From the sequence record NC_048170.1: a stretch of DNA of 64,000 bases. One strand, written 5' to 3'. The translations under genes and the position numbers were made by a program. Under the pieces are notes generated by a model, which was not told where the DNA came from, made no database searches, and worked only from the letters and a program-made list of their open reading frames with translations. Positions within the stretch are counted from its first letter, which is position 1; each line of letters starts with the position of its first letter. The DNA is from Escherichia phage vB_EcoM_Goslar. This document shows, piece by piece, positions 3,633-42,910 of this stretch.

Positions 3633-4652
3633 TTACACCGCCACCTTAGCCTTGATAGCGGGGTGTGATTGATATCCGACGAACACAAAGTCTTCGTAAC
3701 GGTAATCCGTAATACTTTCTGGTTTACGTACGATTGTTAGCTTCGGTAATGGATACGGCTCACGACTAAGTTGTTCTTTAACCTGTTCGAAGTGGTTGTG
3801 ATAGATGTGACAATCTCCACCCGTCCACACGAACTCACCAACGTCCATATTCAGCTGTTGGGCAAGCATGTGTGTCAGCAGTGAATATGATGCGATGTTA
3901 AAGGGAGTCCCTAAAACTGTGTCCTGTGATCTTGCGAGTAGCATGCATGATAAGGCGCGTGTCGGTACGTTGTGTGTATTCAACCAAAGTTCCGTTTCAC
4001 TGTGTCGTACATCATCCGTAACCCACTGGGTTCTTAATACGTCGTTGCGTTGAACATAATCAACACGTTCATCGATCGTGAGCTCGTGGGTATAGAACTG
4101 ATAGAAACTGTGGCATGCGGGAAGCGCCATATCGTCTAAATCACCTACGTTCCATGCGCTAACGATGATCCGTCGAGAATCAGGGTCTTCTTTAAGCTGA
4201 CGCATCACGTTTGCGATTTGGTCGTGGTGTTTAACATACAAGAGATGTTTGACCATACCGGCGTCAACAACACCGCAATACTCATAGCCGCGTTGCATCA
4301 ACTCACGAGTACGTTCTGTATCGTGCGGAACAACCACTTTGTAGTCGATCCATTCCCGCCATTGTTTGCCGTAAATCGGTCCTAGATTCCCTTCTTCGTC
4401 AGCCCATTCATTCCAGATACGAACACCGTTATCTTGAAGATAAGCAACGTTTGTGTCGCCGTTAAGAAACCAGAGCAGTTCGTGGATAACGCTCTTAAGG
4501 TGAATCTTCTTGGTGGTTACCAGCGGGAATCCTTTCTTCAAGTCAAAACGCATCTGACGCCCGAATACGGAACGGGTCCCGGTGCCTGTACGATCAGCTT
4601 TATCGCGACCGTTATCCATGATGTCTTGCAAAAGGTCCAAATACTGTTTCAT
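3633..4652 (-). CDS. thyA: thymidylate synthase
   Basis: Translation carries the ThyA core: [29 protein letters not shown] (catalytic Cys), [32 protein letters not shown]. Two insertions relative to bacterial ThyA. Confidence 0.9.
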
Positions 4653-4852
4653 TTTAATCCTCTAAGTGTTTCAAGTAGTTCCTGAAATTTATAACGATAT
4701 TTAGGATCGCTTAACGTGTAGCAGCAACCATGTAACACGTTATACGCGTAATCGGCTTGTAAACCACGAACCTTCGGATCCAATGATAGATTCAACGGTG
4801 CATCATCAAAAATCCACGCTTCAATGTTCTTCTTGGATTCCTTCGTTAACAT
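4649..4852 (-). CDS. hypothetical protein
   Basis: 67-aa ORF, 4-nt overlap with thyA start. Confidence 0.35.
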
Positions 4853-5017
4853 CGTTTTTCACCTCGTCGTAAAAGTAAATAGAGTTTTGTCGAGACGCCC
4901 TAATTACTTACAACGTCGGTTCTCCCGGCTTCAGAGAATTCTTAAAATCCGTTAGTTTTGATAGATAGGGTAAGACGGCATAAAAGCCTCCCATTACGGG
5001 AGGCTCTATTAATCAGC

Positions 5018-5566
5018 TTATTTCACAAGAACAGCGAATTCGAGAACATGAATAGCTTCATCGTCCATCGGATTTGTCGTGGTATAACCGACGAAGCAAT
5101 AGCCCATATCCACGATAAACTCTCTAAGTTTATCGATGACTGATGCCCCGATACGATCGTCAACAGACAGGCGACATTTACGGGTTATGTTTTGCCCGCG
5201 AGGAACGCCAGCTAACACGGATAGGAAATGTACGATCCGGTTATTGGTTGCGAACTGCTTGAAATCATCGTAGTGCTTAAGGTCTTTCATCGCAGACTCT
5301 ACCGTCATACGACGACCAGGCGACACATACTCAGAATAAGAATAAGCTGCAATCGTGCGGCGGTCTTCAGTGAGGTAAGTATTCCCTTCGGGATGATAGC
5401 TCTCGATTGTTCCGTCTTCATAAGCGACGGTCACAACAGGTGCGCCGTACTCGTCGCGACCGAAATCAATTTTACATTTATCCGAAAGCGGTAGAACCGT
5501 GCAAGGTTTTGCGTTGTTCTCATCAGGGAGATCGTAACCACTCATCATTTTCAAGAACATAGACAT
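5018..5566 (-). CDS. hypothetical protein, member of a tandem paralog family
   Basis: 182 aa; shares NNAKP, TIAAYSYS and a C-terminal ...VLVK with 5653-6186, and its C-terminal half with 6263-6562. Confidence 0.5.
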   Translation of the reverse strand: MSMFLKMMSGYDLPDENNAKPCTVLPLSDKCKIDFGRDEYGAPVVTVAYEDGTIESYHPEGNTYLTEDRRTIAAYSYSEYVSPGRRMTVESAMKDLKHYDDFKQFATNNRIVHFLSVLAGVPRGQNITRKCRLSVDDRIGASVIDKLREFIVDMGYCFVGYTTTNPMDDEAIHVLEFAVLVK

Positions 5567-39621: not shown

Positions 39622-39846
39622 TTAGCAATGGGTGTTAGTTGCTTCTATTTCGTCAAGATAAGGTTCTACGTCATCGCCCTCCACGAATTCGTTGAACCAG
39701 CAGTCAATGGTAGAAATAACCGGTGACTGGTGTTCACATTTCTTAGATACCTTAAAAGGTACGTTATTATCCATCATACCGAGTTCGGGTCGAAAACGCC
39801 CGAAATGTTTCGCAGTCCAAATGTCTGGGACGATATGGTTGTTCAT
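39622..39846 (-). CDS. RNA polymerase beta'-like N-terminal subunit, proposed exon 3
   Basis: Begins MNNHIVPD, aligning with beta' QMAVHVPL right after the catalytic DFDGD; in frame with proposed exons 1 and 2. The exact 3' splice site is uncertain. Confidence 0.45.
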   Translation of the reverse strand: MNNHIVPDIWTAKHFGRFRPELGMMDNNVPFKVSKKCEHQSPVISTIDCWFNEFVEGDDVEPYLDEIEATNTHC

Positions 39847-40201
39847 CGTGGTGTTCAGCATGAGTCGCTACCTCATACCCGCAGCTTTACCTGCAGCTTC
39901 CGGTGTTACCGGAATGTCCAGAATACATCTTATCCATATTCCAAATGGAACGTAGGACTTCCGCGCTGGATCTCGCTTGAGACCACGTATTCGTTGAACG
40001 TTCTCCTGAACGGAGCTTCGCTGCTGATCGAACATTGTCGCGTACGGTAGGCGTCCCCGAAGGGATTGTCATTGAAGCCGCGTACATCCGCTACCTTGTT
40101 TCTACCTTATCGGTTCCTCTTACGAGGCGTAGCGGCCTTAGCCCTTCCCAGCAATTCACGGAATCCAAGCTCTTCCTTTCGGAAGGCAGGGCCTATGATT
40201 A
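39847..40201 (-). ncRNA. putative group I intron 2 (ORF-less)
   Basis: Minus-sense elements in canonical order: P-like GAATTGCTGGGAAGGG (40157-40142), Q-like CAGCAGCGAAGC (40026-40015), R-like GTTCAACGAATACG (39999-39986), S-like AAGATGTATTCTGG (39931-39918). R/S pair as GAATAC/GTATTC. GAAA and UUCG tetraloop hairpins; ends in G at 39847. Confidence 0.5.
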
Positions 40202-40214
40202 AGCGTCACCGTCG
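40202..40214 (-). CDS. RNA polymerase beta'-like N-terminal subunit, proposed 13-nt mini-exon (encodes D-G-D-A)
   Basis: Minus-sense CGACGGTGACGCT supplies GAC GGT GAC; joined to exon 1 (...GAC TT) it restores NADFDGD. Confidence 0.4.
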
Positions 40215-41654
40215 CTTACGTGCACCGACGTTTATTAACTCATGGTTATCCACTGAAATACGGCGTTAGGGAAATAATCCTTCTTGCCGCGTTTTGAGAT
40301 TTGCAATGCCATATTACTCGGAGACAATCTGTAATGCCATGCTGCTTCATCGATAGAACTAAACTTCTTTGTTTCACCGTTATCAAAGATGATTTTCAAC
40401 GCCAGTTTAGGTAAATCGTCTTCCGTTTCTACTAATTCGAAAGAATCGATATTCTCTGCCAGCGTCAACGGATCAACTGGTAATATCAGCCAACCAGCAC
40501 GCTGCAATCCTCCACGTAGACTAATTTGTTTATTCAACGCAGGGGTAGCCATGCCAACTAACTTAGCAGCCAGCTTGCGGTCTTTAATATAAAGACGATA
40601 ATCTCCGGTATTATTAATAGCATACACACCAAAGTTATTGAACGATACCTTTCCAGCATCGGAACTAGTAAAGCCTACAAAGTCGTGGCTGTCGGTAGCC
40701 ACGTCGTATTTAAATGCTAATGGCTTGTTTCGACTGCCGCTAAGATACTTCTTGGCTGTAGATACCGATATGTTGAGATATCGTCCAATAGCATTCAAAC
40801 TTTCTAGTTCGATGATTTCTCCTGTCAATATGTCCTTTAACCGAACATTACCCATCGGTATTGGTGGTTTACCGACATAACCCAATTCACGATATGCGTG
40901 TTTCAAGTTATCTGAATCAGTAGCCCATTCCAAATTTTCTAGTCTGTTATCCCAACGCACCCCATTAAGATGATTAGGGACACGACGGATTATACCTGAC
41001 GTCGGATCTGGGTTAAATGTTTCAAGGACAATCTGATGATGGTATTTCACTTTATTGTTCCTAGTGAAAGCGCGATAGTTGTTTTTGCCCGACTTGGGTG
41101 GTTCAGTACGAAACAACACTGTCAGACTAGACACATCTACTATCGTACCGTTCTTATTAACAACGATACCATCAAAACCATTAACAGGACGATAATCAGA
41201 CAAACAATCTTCAGAAATTGCCTGTCCAACTAAAGGTTCACTCAATTTGACCTCCTTTATAAAAGAAGTCGGTGCACGTAATTATCGACTATATCTTCAT
41301 CCTCGTTGCGAGGAGTCTCCCGTTTTGGTCTGTGTTTAACAGAGCCTACTCTACTCGACATCGCGTCTTTCGATAGTCTGTGAGCACACATCTTAACGAA
41401 CATTCGTGGATTCCTAAACAGGTGAACGTTCTTGTTGAGATGCTTCGCTGCGGATTATTCCCGTCCTACCTCTTTTACCCTACCCAGTTCATTACGCTGG
41501 CCCTCATCTGTGTCACCACGATGAGTTGGTGTGTAGTCCGATTACAGAAACTTCCCGTCAATTAGAGAGTTTTAACTACGTTCCTGTTACCAGAAACCCG
41601 ACTCCGACGATATCAATAAATCAACGTAAGTTATTGATTTAATTGAAGAAACTG
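40215..41654 (-). mobile_element. putative group I intron 1 carrying an HNH homing endonuclease gene
   Basis: Minus-sense P AATTGACGGGAAG (41563-41551), Q AATCCGCAGC (41456-41447), R CTCACAGACTATCG (41384-41371), S AAGATATAGTCGA (41297-41285). Candidate internal guide GAGTCGG (41604-41598) pairs with the exon 1 end CCGACTT with G-U at the splice site. 14-bp inverted repeat (41268-41281 and 40216-40229) encloses the ORF; terminal G at 40215. Confidence 0.6.
40235..41245 (-). CDS. HNH homing endonuclease (intron-encoded)
   Basis: KYHHQIV...VPNHLNGVRWDNRLENLEWATDSDNLKH matches the HNH motif; C-terminal helix-turn-helix-like regions; TTG start 5 nt after AAAGGAGGT. Confidence 0.75.
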   Translation of the reverse strand: MSEPLVGQAISEDCLSDYRPVNGFDGIVVNKNGTIVDVSSLTVLFRTEPPKSGKNNYRAFTRNNKVKYHHQIVLETFNPDPTSGIIRRVPNHLNGVRWDNRLENLEWATDSDNLKHAYRELGYVGKPPIPMGNVRLKDILTGEIIELESLNAIGRYLNISVSTAKKYLSGSRNKPLAFKYDVATDSHDFVGFTSSDAGKVSFNNFGVYAINNTGDYRLYIKDRKLAAKLVGMATPALNKQISLRGGLQRAGWLILPVDPLTLAENIDSFELVETEDDLPKLALKIIFDNGETKKFSSIDEAAWHYRLSPSNMALQISKRGKKDYFPNAVFQWITMS

Positions 41655-42910
41655 AAGTCGGCATTATAACCTTTGAGGATCATCACGCTTAACCCGATGG
41701 TGTTATCCTGCGGATCGCGTTTAACCTTGGTGATTTCAAGACATTGGTTACTGCTTCGGTCAAGTGATGGGTTTCGAACAAAGCCACACACAATCCCATC
41801 GAACGGTGTATCAGCAATAAGCTCATCGTGCAGCTCGCTCATCATCGGATGATAATTACGGACATGTTCCGCAACGAACGCACGTGCTGCTCTCGGTGAA
41901 TAACCACGATGGAATAACTTGGATTGGATATGTTCTTTATTGGTTAAAGTAAATGGTGCGTATGGGAAATGCAGATGATAATAACGATGGTTCGCTGTTA
42001 TCGAACTGATTACAGTACGCGTGGTGAATGGATGTAATGTACCTAATATGTTTTTACGTGTAATACCTTTCTTCTTACCGATGAACTCATCGAAAATCGC
42101 CGCGTGGTATTGCAGCAGCTTCAATTGCACTTTCGCCATCCAGTTTTCTTTCTTTCTGGCGCTCAAAGGTGTTGTTGGATGATAGATACTATTCAACGTA
42201 CCGATAGCATCGATCGCACCTTCCATTTTGCTATCTGCATAACGACCGGTCGGCGTATTTTCGATAACGAACATCATGGCCGCAGGAAAGCTGATATACT
42301 GACTGAAGAACTTATCACGATGGATTCGGATGAATTCTCGTAGCGTGTCAACTTTCTCCGTGTTCTTCGGTCCACGTAACGTAGGTCCTTTATACAAGAT
42401 CTCCATGATGCGATCGAAGTTCTGTATAAAGCTATTTACGCCACGACGTATCCCGAATACATCGAATTGCTGCTCCAGATAGTTCTTGAGTTCGATGGGT
42501 CGTTTTACATTTGGACGGTAACTGGCATCAATGAGCCACGTCATCGTTTCAAAGCTTTTGATATTCAACTCGCTTGCCAGCACGAGATGGACCAACGGGT
42601 TAATGAACGCATCGATTCCTTCAGGAACACGCGCCCAAACCGTCGAACGAATCTCTTGTTCTGCTGGGTAGGTTACAACCGTTTTACAGTTTGGACACAC
42701 CGTGCCGAGTAGCTCACCACGATTGTAGAAACCACAACCACATTGTGGTGTGATATCCAACGTATCGCTGGAATAAACACGGGTGATAAAACTGTTTAAT
42801 TTCTTCTTCTCTTCGACGACTTTTGTATCGTAATCGTTCAACAAAATCGGCGTAAAAGGAAGTTCTGCGAGCTGTCTATCGAAACTCACGATATCGAGCA
42901 TGATGGCCAT
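41655..42910 (-). CDS. RNA polymerase beta'-like N-terminal subunit, exon 1
   Basis: Zinc ribbon CGCGFYN...CPNC; GITRKNILGTLHPFTTRTVI parallels [20 protein letters not shown]; ends ...LKGYNADF. The unspliced ORF then reads SFFN-stop. Confidence 0.7.

What the first reader, a model, noticed from the sequence alone, without database searches (positions are those of the whole stretch)
40215..41281. HNH homing endonuclease gene looped out by a 14-bp perfect inverted repeat at the 3' end of intron 1
ttacgtgcaccgac at 41281-41268 (minus sense) is exactly complementary to gtcggtgcacgtaa at 40229-40216. These two arms bracket the RBS (AAAGGAGGT), the TTG start and the whole HNH ORF, and the downstream arm is followed by the intron's terminal G. 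This is the architecture expected for an ORF sitting in a peripheral (P9-type) loop, and makes the endonuclease a candidate mobile or interference element as described for other jumbo-phage intron endonucleases.
Basis: partly seen in the sequence, partly recalled or inferred. Interest (0 to 1): 0.7.

Follow-up and report, generated by a model that had tools for sequence, protein, structure and literature searches.

The report
Intron endonuclease gene closed by hairpin
A self-splicing intron that splits the catalytic motif of a giant phage's RNA polymerase gene carries a DNA-nicking enzyme gene at its very end, held out of the way by a perfect 14-base-pair RNA stem; close relatives lack the gene and stem together, so it is a separable mobile module of a known kind.

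Summary
On the minus strand, 41281-41268 and 40229-40216 are perfectly complementary over 14 nt. Between them lie the RBS, the TTG start and a 336-aa HNH/NUMOD (I-HmuI-like) ORF. G40215 follows directly and is the intron's terminal G.

The host gene is the chimallivirus non-virion RNA polymerase beta'-N subunit. Intron 1 (41654-40215) splits NADF|DGD. A 13-nt mini-exon and a second, ORF-less intron (40201-39847) follow. The spliced product aligns without gaps to intron-less homologues.

New points:
- Four related contigs carry intron 1 without the ORF and without either arm.
- Two ORF alleles differ at dS about 1 (flanking exon 0.15; ORF dN/dS 0.07), yet both arms are invariant.
- The fused ORF flanks copy the exon junction (17 of 19), with the ORF at the intron-insertion position. 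This is the T4 sunY/I-TevII pattern.

I read the stem as an RNA clamp that returns the distant 3' splice site to the ribozyme core. The stem-plus-ORF unit is a separable homing module. It is a new member of a known kind. Splicing, nicking and interference are untested.

The parts
41655..42910 (-). Exon 1 of the non-virion RNA polymerase beta'-N gene (phiKZ gp55 / 201phi2-1 gp107 homologue). It ends ...AAT GCC GAC TT.
   Evidence: tblastn found 294 jumbo-phage records, many annotated as RNA polymerase beta or beta' subunit, including nvRNAP beta'. The gene lies directly downstream of the chimallin ORF 44898-43003. The spliced protein aligns without gaps.
40215..41654 (-). Intron 1, a group I intron of 1,440 nt inserted inside the Phe codon of NADFDGD (TT|C).
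   Evidence: RF00028 hit at 41645-41269, 46.9 bits, E 7e-10. P1, P10 and the terminal G are given in the rows below. An in-frame stop lies at 41641-41639.
41598..41608 (-). Internal guide sequence GUCG|GAGUCGG. GAGUCGG pairs with the exon-1 end CCGACUU (P1). GUCG pairs with the exon-2 start CGAC (P10).
   Evidence: All 7 P1 pairs are kept in both haplotypes (CCGACUU/GAGUCGG and CAGAUUU/GGAUCUG), through two double compensatory changes. P10 is kept in all 8 sequences.
41282..41298 (-). P7 3' strand GAAGAUAUAGUC followed by J7/9 GAUAA, the last core elements before the stem.
   Evidence: cmscan alignment; coordinates.
41268..41281 (-). 5' arm of the 14-bp closing stem, UUACGUGCACCGAC. Its end plus the next bases (CCGACUUC, 41272-41265) repeats the exon-1/intron junction CCGACUU|C (41661-41654).
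   Evidence: Identical in the second HNH allele.
41250..41258 (-). Shine-Dalgarno sequence AAAGGAGGU of the endonuclease gene, in the loop and not in the stem.
   Evidence: A GGAGG is also kept upstream of the same TTG in the L008 allele.
40235..41245 (-). HNH homing-endonuclease ORF: TTG start, 336 aa, HNH_3 at residues 68-114, NUMOD1 at 138-168, and a weak I-HmuI NUMOD-like match at 286-308.
   Evidence: dN/dS is 0.066 against the 90%-identical allele. PhiPA3 gp210 matches at E 4e-9 over 92% of the length. Foldseek finds I-HmuI 1u3e at E 4.8e-5 from a low-confidence model.
40216..40229 (-). 3' arm of the closing stem, GUCGGUGCACGUAA. Together with the preceding C it resembles the exon-2 start (CGUCGGUG against CGACGGUG).
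40215..40215 (-). Terminal G (omega-G) of intron 1, immediately after the stem.
   Evidence: Exon 2 must start at C40214 to complete TTC-GAC-GGT-GAC. ORF-less alleles end ...CAG|CGACGG at the same point.
40202..40214 (-). 13-nt mini-exon CGACGGUGACGCU. It encodes (F)DGDA, the last two Mg-binding aspartates of the NADFDGD triad.
   Evidence: The same mini-exon is present in L006, L008 and L019-L021.
39847..40201 (-). [quoted passage not shown] The 5' splice site follows GCU and the 3' splice site follows G39847.
   Evidence: Weak RF00028 hit at 40163-39959 (16.7 bits). Its L005 copies score 28 and 26 bits. alifold with the 77%-identical copy 2b shows compensatory pairs in P1, P2 and other helices.
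39622..39846 (-). Exon 3: ATG AAC AAC CAT ... (MNNHIVPD...) through to the stop codon.
   Evidence: Gap-free alignment to Eowyn, 201phi2-1, L022 and L023.

Best explanation
Anatomy. The 14-bp inverted repeat is an RNA helix. It closes a 1,038-nt loop (RBS plus a TTG-initiated, I-HmuI-like HNH endonuclease gene). The loop is inserted between J7/9 and the terminal G of a group I intron. That intron splits the Phe codon of the catalytic NADFDGD motif in the phage's non-virion RNA polymerase beta'-N gene.

Role of the stem (inferred). In ORF-less relatives the terminal G lies only 8-9 nt after P7. In the ORF-bearing form the helix removes the kilobase insertion topologically: J7/9 GAUAA, then the helix, then G. 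The 3' splice site and its P10 partner can then still reach the ribozyme core.

A separable module (shown by comparison). The helix and the ORF behave as one unit:
- They are absent together in four near-identical introns.
- They are present as two alleles whose synonymous divergence is about 7 times that of the flanking gene.
- The arms are invariant between those two alleles.

Origin (inferred). The apex of the helix copies the exon-1/exon-2 junction, with the ORF at the position that the intron occupies in the gene. This fits origin or spread by the endonuclease acting on a look-alike of its own homing site.

Function of the protein (inferred from homology). It nicks intron-less or ORF-less alleles of co-infecting relatives near CCGACTT^CGACGGTG, and recombinational repair copies the module in. 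It may also damage competitors, as PhiPA3 gp210 does.
For: - Stem: real, improbable by chance and predicted to form.
- Group I core: RF00028, E 7e-10. alifold recovers P1, P2, P3 and P8. All 7 P1 pairs are kept through two double compensatory changes, and P10 is kept in 8 of 8 sequences.
- Splice model: the spliced product reads GYNADFDGDAMNNH. It aligns without gaps to Eowyn and 201phi2-1 and to the intron-less relatives L022 and L023 at 62-65% identity.
- ORF-less alleles: L006, L019, L020 and L021 end GATAACAG|CGAC or GATAAACAG|CGAC, with neither arm present. The WIN and L006 cores are identical over the 3' 300 nt or so.
- Segment identities, WIN against L008: exon 1 97.1%, intron core 96.5%, both arms 100%, RBS spacer 62.5%, ORF 83.1%.
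- Divergence: ORF dS 0.985, dN 0.065, dN/dS 0.066, against exon-1 dS 0.147.
- Homing-site copy: fused ORF flanks CCGACTTCGTCGGTGCACG against exon junction CCGACTTCGACGGTG-ACG, 17 of 19. This score was reached by 0 of 5000 shuffles and by 8 of 5000 random perfect hairpins. The same was reported for I-TevII in T4 sunY (Loizos et al., as summarised in PMC3984707).
- Protein family: Pfam HNH_3 and NUMOD1; PhiPA3 gp210, a proven nicking homing endonuclease (PMC11620839); I-HmuI as the only significant fold hit.
- Same architecture elsewhere: the Erwinia phage pEa_SNUABM_54 intron in the same gene has the core, then an HNH ORF closed by a perfect 10-bp repeat ending 11 nt before the terminal G.
Against: - No experiment supports any step. 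Self-splicing, use of G40215, nicking and the target site are all inferred.
- The stem shows invariance, not covariation, and only two ORF alleles exist. Sequence-specific or DNA-level constraint therefore cannot be separated from pairing.
- The RF00028 score of 46.9 bits is just below the gathering score of 50.
- The minimum-free-energy fold keeps only 11 of the 14 pairs.
- No ORF-less intron carrying the empty hairpin was found. The invasion intermediate is unobserved, and the direction of change (gain or loss) is open.
- Neither a clean insertion nor a clean deletion converts GAUAA[..]G into GAUAACAG without an extra change.
- In the CAGAUUU haplotype (L009) the arms still carry CCGAC. The resemblance to the exon junction is therefore not maintained everywhere.
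- The structure model is of low confidence (pLDDT 60).
Confidence: 0.75

Rival explanations
1. Resident P9 hairpin. The 14-bp stem is the intron's own ancestral P9 and the ORF simply filled its loop. The ORF-less alleles are then secondary deletions that removed P9 together with the ORF.
For: The stem sits exactly where P9 belongs, after P7/J7/9. The two ORF alleles are old (dS about 1) and share the stem, so the stem and ORF have been associated for a long time. Other introns in the same gene have P9-type hairpins (pEa_SNUABM_54; L025).
Against: Four independent ORF-less contigs have only 8-9 nt between P7 and the terminal G. They belong to long phage contigs in which this essential gene must still be spliced. 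Deletion between the flanking TAA repeats would give GAUAAG, not the observed GAUAACAG or GAUAAACAG. No hairpin-only allele was found in viral contigs.
Confidence: 0.25
2. The arms are terminal inverted repeats of a DNA transposon-like cassette that moves at the DNA level, in the manner of an IS, MITE or IStron. RNA pairing would then be incidental.
For: The arms are present only when the ORF is present. The arms are invariant rather than covarying. Group I introns carrying IS elements at their 3' ends (IStrons) are known (PMC4227781, listed).
Against: There is no transposase: the only ORF is an HNH/NUMOD endonuclease. No target-site duplication is seen at the empty site. No other copy of the arms or of close ORF relatives was found outside this intron. 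An unclamped 1-kb insertion between the core and the terminal G would be expected to impair splicing of an essential gene, so an RNA role is required in any case.
Confidence: 0.05
3. The stem is mainly a regulator of the endonuclease gene or of RNA processing. For example, it could gate translation, or the CCGACUU|C copy in the 5' arm could be an alternative ribozyme cleavage site that releases an ORF mRNA.
For: CCGACUUC occurs both at the 5' splice site (41661-41654) and at the arm/loop boundary (41272-41265). The guide sequence GAGUCGG could pair with either copy. The ORF uses a weak TTG start that is conserved in both alleles.
Against: The RBS and start codon lie in the loop, not in the stem. 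In the L009 haplotype the guide sequence has changed to GGAUCUG but the arm has not, so the alternative pairing is not maintained. The stem needs about 1 kb of downstream transcription before it can form, so it cannot act as a local translational hairpin.
Confidence: 0.1
4. The inverted repeat is a chance match with no function.
For: Perfect repeats of 12-13 nt do arise in shuffled sequence.
Against: Only 1 of 500 shuffles reached 14 nt. The arms bracket the ORF and RBS exactly and abut the terminal G. The 28 arm bases are unchanged between alleles with 17% ORF divergence; 0.83 to the power 28 is about 0.005.
Confidence: 0.02

Closest known systems
Phage T4 nrdD (sunY) group I intron with I-TevII
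   Same: The ORF lies downstream of the whole catalytic core, so the 3' splice site is about 1 kb from the ribozyme (own knowledge; not checked in the papers read here). The intron sequences flanking the ORF resemble the exon junction that is the endonuclease's target (Loizos et al., summarised in PMC3984707). Here the resemblance is 17 of 19.
   Different: I-TevII is a GIY-YIG enzyme, whereas this one is HNH/NUMOD. The host gene differs. Here the look-alike halves are the two strands of one perfect 14-bp helix that directly abuts the terminal G, and natural ORF-less alleles exist.
PhiPA3 gp210 intron endonuclease (Birkholz et al. 2024, PMC11620839)
   Same: It is an HNH endonuclease inside a group I intron that interrupts conserved residues of a chimallivirus multisubunit RNA polymerase gene. 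It is a distant homologue (23% identity over 92%, E 4e-9). Its ORF is also largely bracketed by a long-range inverted repeat (21 nt, 86%).
   Different: gp210 sits in the virion RNAP beta subunit gene, not in the nvRNAP beta'-N gene. Its ORF lies 5' of the ribozyme core (L024 ORF 1489-2481, core 2438-2726). Nicking and interference are demonstrated there and untested here.
I-HmuI / I-BasI introns of Bacillus phages SPO1 and Bastille
   Same: These are nicking HNH plus NUMOD endonucleases encoded in phage group I introns within an active-site-coding region. I-HmuI is the only significant structural match (1u3e, E 4.8e-5).
   Different: The host gene there is DNA polymerase. There is no detectable sequence match to PDB chains. 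This protein is about twice as long as I-HmuI (336 against 174 aa).
Unannotated intron in Erwinia phage pEa_SNUABM_54 (MW879341.1) and in metagenomic locus L025
   Same: The gene and motif are the same (insertion at NADFDG|D, 7 nt downstream of this site). The order is the same: core, then an HNH_3 ORF of about 335 aa, then the 3' splice site. In pEa_SNUABM_54 a perfect 10-bp inverted repeat brackets the ORF, with its 3' arm 11 nt before the terminal G.
   Different: The insertion site is different. The endonucleases are barely related (28% identity over 74 aa). These introns have P9/P9.1 hairpins upstream of the ORF, and neither has a second intron or a mini-exon.
IStrons (group I intron plus IS element)
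   Same: A group I ribozyme carries a large protein-coding insertion (PMC4227781 abstract, listed). That the insertion lies towards the intron's 3' end is own knowledge, not read here.
   Different: IStrons carry IS transposase genes and move by transposition. Here the cargo is a homing endonuclease, with no transposase and no target-site duplication.

Membership tests
Group I intron (Rfam RF00028) | Conserved catalytic core (P3-P8, P4-P6, P7 G-binding helix) recognised by the covariance model | tested here: met
   Match at 41645-41269 over model positions 1-253, 46.9 bits, E 7e-10. The score is 3 bits below the gathering score. The ORF-less copy in L006 scores 46.5 bits.
Group I intron (Rfam RF00028) | 5' splice site after a U that forms a U.G pair in P1 with an internal guide sequence; P10 formed with the 3' exon | tested here: met
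   CCGACUU pairs with GAGUCGG, with a terminal U.G. The pairing is kept as CAGAUUU/GGAUCUG in the other haplotype through two double compensatory changes. P10 CGAC/GUCG is kept in 8 of 8 sequences.
Group I intron (Rfam RF00028) | Terminal G at the 3' end, and removal restores the host reading frame | tested here: met
   G40215 precedes CGACGGTGAC. The spliced product reads NADFDGDAMNNH and aligns without gaps to four homologues.
Group I intron (Rfam RF00028) | Self-splicing with guanosine in vitro or in vivo | not testable with these tools
   Needs in vitro transcription and splicing, or RT-PCR from infected cells.
HNH homing endonuclease, I-HmuI type | HNH motif with catalytic His/Asn residues | tested here: met
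   Pfam HNH_3 scores 31.1 bits (cut-off 24.8) at residues 68-114. H70, N91, H92, N104 and N113 are invariant across 8 homologues and unchanged between the two alleles.
HNH homing endonuclease, I-HmuI type | NUMOD-type DNA-binding modules C-terminal to the nuclease | tested here: met
   NUMOD1 scores 24.0 bits (cut-off 22.8) at residues 138-168. The I-HmuI NUMOD-like match scores 16.9 bits, below its cut-off of 27.
HNH homing endonuclease, I-HmuI type | Fold similar to I-HmuI | tested here: inconclusive
   The only PDB match with E below 0.001 is 1u3e (E 4.8e-5, probability 1.00). However, the model is poor (pLDDT 60, TM 0.22/0.37). A sequence search of the PDB found nothing.
HNH homing endonuclease, I-HmuI type | Site-specific nicking of the intron-less allele near the insertion site | not testable with these tools
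   Needs purified protein and plasmid substrates, as was done for gp210 (PMC11620839).
Mobile intron / homing module | Presence/absence polymorphism at the same site among close relatives | tested here: met
   ORF-bearing: window/L004/L014 and L008-L013. ORF-less intron 1: L006, L019, L020, L021. No intron 1: L005. Fully intron-less: L022, L023.
sunY-type 'endonuclease-gene invasion' signature (Loizos et al.) | Intron sequences flanking the ORF resemble the exon junction (homing site) | tested here: met
   17 of 19 matches with one gap. The score was reached by 0 of 5000 shuffles and by 8 of 5000 random hairpins. The ORF lies at the position equivalent to the intron insertion point.
sunY-type 'endonuclease-gene invasion' signature (Loizos et al.) | The endonuclease cleaves the fused ORF-flanking sequence | not testable with these tools
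   Needs an in vitro nicking assay on the hairpin DNA TTACGTGCACCGACTTCGTCGGTGCACGTAA.
PhiPA3 gp210-type interference endonuclease | Reduces the fitness of a co-infecting intron-less competitor | not testable with these tools
   Only homology and an analogous genomic setting are available. Needs co-infection experiments.
TIR-bounded DNA transposon / IStron | Transposase gene and target-site duplication | tested here: not met
   The only ORF is HNH/NUMOD. The empty site GATAACAG, compared with the filled site, shows no duplication.

The most novel reading that the evidence does not exclude
The hairpin-plus-HNH unit is an autonomous homing module. It recognises the CCGACTT^CG(A/T)CGGTG sequence wherever that occurs, whether at the exon junction or at a look-alike inside an intron, and so moves independently of the ribozyme. 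The NADFDGD codons of chimallivirus nvRNAP beta' are then a battleground: several unrelated introns (four insertion sites within 26 nt among phages at least 95% identical, and more sites in distant relatives) break up each other's endonuclease target sites, leaving 13-nt mini-exons. This would be a natural, still-segregating snapshot of endonuclease-gene invasion and of competition between introns.
Probability: 0.3. Interest if true: 0.7.

Novelty: new member of a known kind. Interest (0 to 1): 0.5.

Why it matters
Intron-encoded HNH endonucleases in nucleus-forming jumbo phages have recently been shown to act as weapons between co-infecting phages (PhiPA3 gp210, PMC11620839). This locus offers a second, distantly related case in a different polymerase, the non-virion RNAP, at its catalytic aspartate motif.

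Natural alleles are available for every state needed in an experiment:
- ORF-bearing intron, in two alleles;
- ORF-less intron;
- intron 1 absent;
- fully intron-less.

The locus therefore makes three things directly testable. First, whether a long-range clamp helix is what allows a ribozyme to tolerate a kilobase insertion next to its 3' splice site. Second, whether an endonuclease gene enters an intron through a look-alike of its own homing site. Third, whether neighbouring introns protect a gene from rival endonucleases.

It also shows that annotation of public jumbo-phage genomes misses such introns. In pEa_SNUABM_54 the gene is annotated as separate hypothetical proteins.

Tried and rejected
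- megablast of the locus against GenBank phages found no match. The phage is known only from metagenome and IMG/VR contigs.
- A PDB sequence search with the HNH protein found nothing.
- A viral-contig scan for the P7 3' strand returned two unrelated AT-rich introns with a LAGLIDADG-like ORF and an ordinary P9 (L015, L018). These were discarded as not homologous.
- A scan for an empty version of the hairpin (GTGCACCGAC N0-12 GTCGGTGCAC) in viral contigs found nothing.
- Only two close HNH alleles exist in 5.8 billion proteins, so covariation in the stem could not be tested.
- I first took the hairpin AAAUCAAU...GUUGAUUU, which cmscan aligned as P1, for the real P1. I rejected this because it would place an in-frame stop in the exon. 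The real P1 is exon CCGACUU with GAGUCGG, and that hairpin lies inside the P1 loop.
- I considered G39859 as the 3' splice site of intron 2. I rejected it because it adds four residues between DGD and M that no homologue has.
- I could not at first close the pEa_SNUABM_54 intron because I assumed exon 2 began at the annotated ATG. Comparison with L025 showed that exon 2 begins 21 nt further on, after CAG.
- The idea that the CCGACUU copy in the 5' arm is an alternative ribozyme substrate was downgraded. The guide sequence changes in the L009 haplotype while the arm does not.
- The AlphaFold model was poor (pLDDT 60), so only the single I-HmuI hit is used, and cautiously.
Full report
**1. The observation**

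All features are on the minus strand. The arms are 41281-41268 (UUACGUGCACCGAC) and 40229-40216 (GUCGGUGCACGUAA). They are complementary at 14 of 14 positions.

Between the arms lie:
- a U-rich spacer;
- AAAGGAGGU (41258-41250);
- a TTG start at 41245;
- a 336-aa ORF ending at stop codon 40237-40235.

G40215 follows the 3' arm directly.

A perfect inverted repeat this long arose in 1 of 500 dinucleotide shuffles of the intron and in 5 of 300 shuffles of the surrounding 2.5 kb. The centroid fold of the complete 1,440-nt intron keeps all 14 pairs, and the minimum-free-energy fold keeps 11.

**2. The host gene and the splice model**

- ORF 44898-43003 is a chimallin (Pfam PF25677).
- The next gene, 42910-41639, matches the N-terminal beta' subunit of the non-virion RNA polymerase of nucleus-forming jumbo phages. 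These include phiKZ gp55, 201phi2-1 gp107 and Eowyn RpoBC. Identity is at most 36%.
- Its reading frame breaks inside the catalytic motif, reading NADF then SFFN-stop.

cmscan finds a full-length group I intron at 41645-41269 (46.9 bits, E 7e-10, just under the gathering score). It finds a weak second one at 40163-39959.

Splicing as exon 1 ...GCCGACTT (to 41655), then CGACGGTGACGCT (40214-40202), then ATGAACAAC... (from 39846) gives GYNADFDGDAMNNHIVPD. This aligns without gaps to Eowyn and 201phi2-1. It also aligns to two intron-less relatives of 62-65% identity recovered from metagenomes (L022 GYNADFDGDAMNHH, L023 AYNADFDGDEMNNH).

The locus therefore holds two introns separated by a 13-nt mini-exon that encodes DGD:
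- intron 1, 41654-40215, 1,440 nt, carrying the ORF;
- intron 2, 40201-39847, 355 nt, with no ORF.

**3. Intron 1 is a real ribozyme-type intron**

- The exon-1 end CCGACUU pairs with GAGUCGG (41604-41598), with the canonical terminal U.G.
- The adjacent GUCG pairs with the exon-2 start CGAC (P10).
- In a second haplotype the exon reads CAGAUUU and the guide GGAUCUG. All seven pairs are kept through two double compensatory changes.
- alifold on eight distinct ORF-deleted copies recovers P1, P2, P3 and P8, with further compensatory changes.
- The exon frame meets a stop 13 nt into the intron (41641-41639).

**4. Position of the ORF**

After the P7 3' strand (GAAGAUAUAGUC, 41298-41287) come five bases (GAUAA), then the 5' arm.

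**5. The protein**

- Pfam gives HNH_3 (31.1 bits) and NUMOD1 (24.0 bits), both above their cut-offs. There is also a sub-threshold I-HmuI NUMOD-like match.
- The best full-length hit among GenBank phages is PhiPA3 gp210 (23% identity over 92%, E 4e-9). gp210 is the nicking, intron-encoded endonuclease shown to interfere with phiKZ (PMC11620839).
- A low-confidence AlphaFold model (pLDDT 60) has a single significant PDB match, I-HmuI 1u3e (E 4.8e-5).
- Against a 90%-identical allele, dN/dS is 0.066. The protein is therefore under purifying selection.

**6. Relatives show what the stem belongs to**

The window is identical to IMG/VR contig UViG_2974650247_000001. Related contigs are 95-98% identical in the flanks. 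They fall into four haplotypes:

| Haplotype | Contigs | Intron content |
|---|---|---|
| A | window/L004/L014, L008, L011 | intron 1 with ORF, intron 2 |
| B | L009, L010, L012, L013 | extra intron X, intron 1 with ORF, intron 2 |
| C | L006, L019, L020, L021 | intron X, intron 1 without ORF, intron 2 |
| D | L005 | intron '2b' at NA\|DF, intron 2; no intron 1 |

In all four haplotype C contigs both arms are missing along with the ORF. The intron ends ...GAUAUAGUCGAUAACAG|CGAC, or GAUAAACAG in L020.

The window and L006 cores are identical over the 3' 300 nt or so, up to the insertion point. In this sample the stem therefore travels with the ORF. It is not a fixed P9 of the ribozyme.

**7. 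The module has its own history**

Between the window and L008 the identities by segment are:

| Segment | Identity |
|---|---|
| exon 1 | 97.1% |
| intron 1 core | 96.5% |
| intron 2 | 94.9% |
| exon 3 | 98.7% |
| ORF | 83.1% |
| RBS spacer | 62.5% |
| both arms | 100% |

ORF dS is 0.985, against 0.147 for exon 1. Two old ORF alleles thus sit in nearly identical, recombining backgrounds. The 28 arm bases are the only part of the insert that has not changed; 0.83 to the power 28 is about 0.005. This is strong constraint, but it is invariance and not covariation.

**8. The arms copy the homing site**

Removing the loop fuses the flanks to CCGACTT-CGTCGGTGCACG. The exon junction is CCGACTT|CGACGGTG-ACG. 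That is 17 matches in 19 positions.

The ORF loop occupies the same position that the intron occupies in the gene. No plain shuffle in 5000 reached this score, and only 8 of 5000 random perfect hairpins did.

This matches what Loizos and colleagues reported for I-TevII in the T4 sunY intron. They used it to argue that an endonuclease gene invades an intron at a look-alike of its own target (review PMC3984707).

A hairpin-only, ORF-less intermediate was not found. The direction of change stays open.

One detail is noted as inference only. If the last two A's of the 3' arm are counted as native tail, the empty-site lengths match the ORF-less tails: 8 nt for the window against L006, and 9 nt for L008 against L020. 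The window/L006 pair then differs by one substitution and the L008/L020 pair by two.

**9. Mechanism proposed**

Shown:
- the anatomy;
- P1/P10 pairing with covariation;
- restoration of the reading frame;
- segregation of the module;
- selection on the protein and on the arms;
- the homing-site copy.

Inferred:
- The helix clamps the kilobase loop so that the terminal G and exon 2 sit as close to P7 as they do in the ORF-less intron.
- The endonuclease nicks intron-less or ORF-less alleles near CCGACTT^CGACGGTG, and repair copies the module in.
- Because the ORF sits next to exon 2, homology for repair exists on both sides in either kind of recipient.

Speculative:
- interference with competitors, as shown for gp210.

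**10. Comparison with known systems**

- The closest architecture is T4 sunY/I-TevII: the ORF lies 3' of the core and the flanks mimic the target.
- The closest biological setting and protein is PhiPA3 gp210. However, that ORF lies 5' of the core, in the virion RNAP beta gene. It too is largely bracketed by a 21-nt, 86% inverted repeat.
- The same gene in Erwinia phage pEa_SNUABM_54 carries an unannotated 1,376-nt intron at NADFDG|D (L003 3764-5139). It has a 334-aa HNH ORF closed by a perfect 10-bp repeat that ends 11 nt before the terminal G. Its spliced product is gap-free.
- Metagenomic locus L025 has the same site and the same order of parts.

The clamp-plus-3'-ORF design therefore recurs. 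This locus is a new member of a known kind.

**11. Caveats**

- Nothing here is experimental.
- The Rfam score is marginally sub-threshold.
- There are only two ORF alleles.
- The structure model is of low confidence.
- The related sequences are mostly metagenome assemblies.

Noticed in passing
window 40214-39847 (minus strand): A 13-nt mini-exon (CGACGGTGACGCT, encoding DGD-A) separates intron 1 from a second, ORF-less group I intron of 355 nt. Two of the three catalytic aspartates are thus encoded on a 13-nt exon flanked by two ribozymes.
   Followed up: yes
L006 7242-8365; L005 7248-7976; L009/L010/L012/L013: Phages at least 95% identical to the window differ in intron content at this motif. 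There is an extra intron X after the first base of the Tyr codon (G|Y), and an intron '2b' after AACGCT (NA|DF). Up to three group I introns occur in a row, with three consecutive RF00028 hits in L006. That makes four insertion sites within 26 nt of coding sequence.
   Followed up: partly
L005 7614-7976: In L005 the 5' exon of intron 2 ends GCC and not GCU. The predicted P1 changes from GCUU/AGGC to GCCA/UGGC. The cleavage-site pair would therefore be C-G instead of the near-universal U.G wobble.
   Followed up: partly
L006 7570-7606 and L005 7560-7600: Intron X and intron 2b share a near-identical 3' terminal module (GGGTATGGAGTAGCGAACCATACTGAAGA), although their 5' parts differ. Intron 2b is about 77% identical to intron 2 and inserts after a similar sequence (AACGCT|T against GACGCT|T). 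This suggests mosaic introns and ectopic re-insertion.
   Followed up: no
window 40217-40201 (minus strand): A small hairpin, AAGCG-ACGGUGA-CGCUU, spans the whole mini-exon. It pairs the terminal G of intron 1 and the 5' splice-site U of intron 2. cmscan used it as a pseudo-P9 for the ORF-less intron in L006 (that hit extends to 8013). Its function is unknown.
   Followed up: no
L003 (Erwinia phage pEa_SNUABM_54, MW879341.1) 3764-5139: A public phage genome has an unannotated group I intron (RF00028, 47 bits) in the same gene at NADFDG|D, with a 334-aa HNH ORF. The record annotates the pieces as four separate hypothetical proteins.
   Followed up: yes
proteins P0033, P0038, P0039, P0041, P0051, P0053, P0062, P0063, P0069, P0070, P0074: Many metagenomic beta'-N homologues (30-39% identity) are truncated at different points inside the motif: after NA, NAD, NADFDG or NADFDGD. 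This suggests that the catalytic motif is a widespread intron-insertion hot spot in chimalliviruses. Only L025 was checked at the DNA level.
   Followed up: partly
L026 3745-6245: One truncated homologue (ending at NA|) is followed by about 940 nt with no called gene. Further on there is an IS605 OrfB/TnpB-like (Cas12f-like) gene. This could be an IStron-like or unrelated insertion.
   Followed up: no
L012 (GCA_008102125.1, AAJPOU010000051.1): The 90%-identical HNH allele and its intron occur on a 2.3-kb contig of a Salmonella enterica serovar Kentucky isolate assembly. This hints that Salmonella is the host of this roughly 237-kb uncultured chimallivirus lineage.
   Followed up: no
L024 (PhiPA3) 1482-1502 / 2405-2425: The gp210 ORF of PhiPA3 is itself largely bracketed by a 21-nt, 86% inverted repeat. 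The 5' arm overlaps the start codon and the 3' arm lies in the C-terminal coding region, just before the ribozyme core.
   Followed up: partly
window mini-exon compared with L008-L013, L020, L021: The mini-exon has two synonymous versions (GGTGAC and GGGGAT). HNH allele a is found only with GGTGAC and allele b only with GGGGAT, whereas ORF-less introns carry either. This could reflect co-conversion or co-evolved specificity, but the sample is too small to tell.
   Followed up: no
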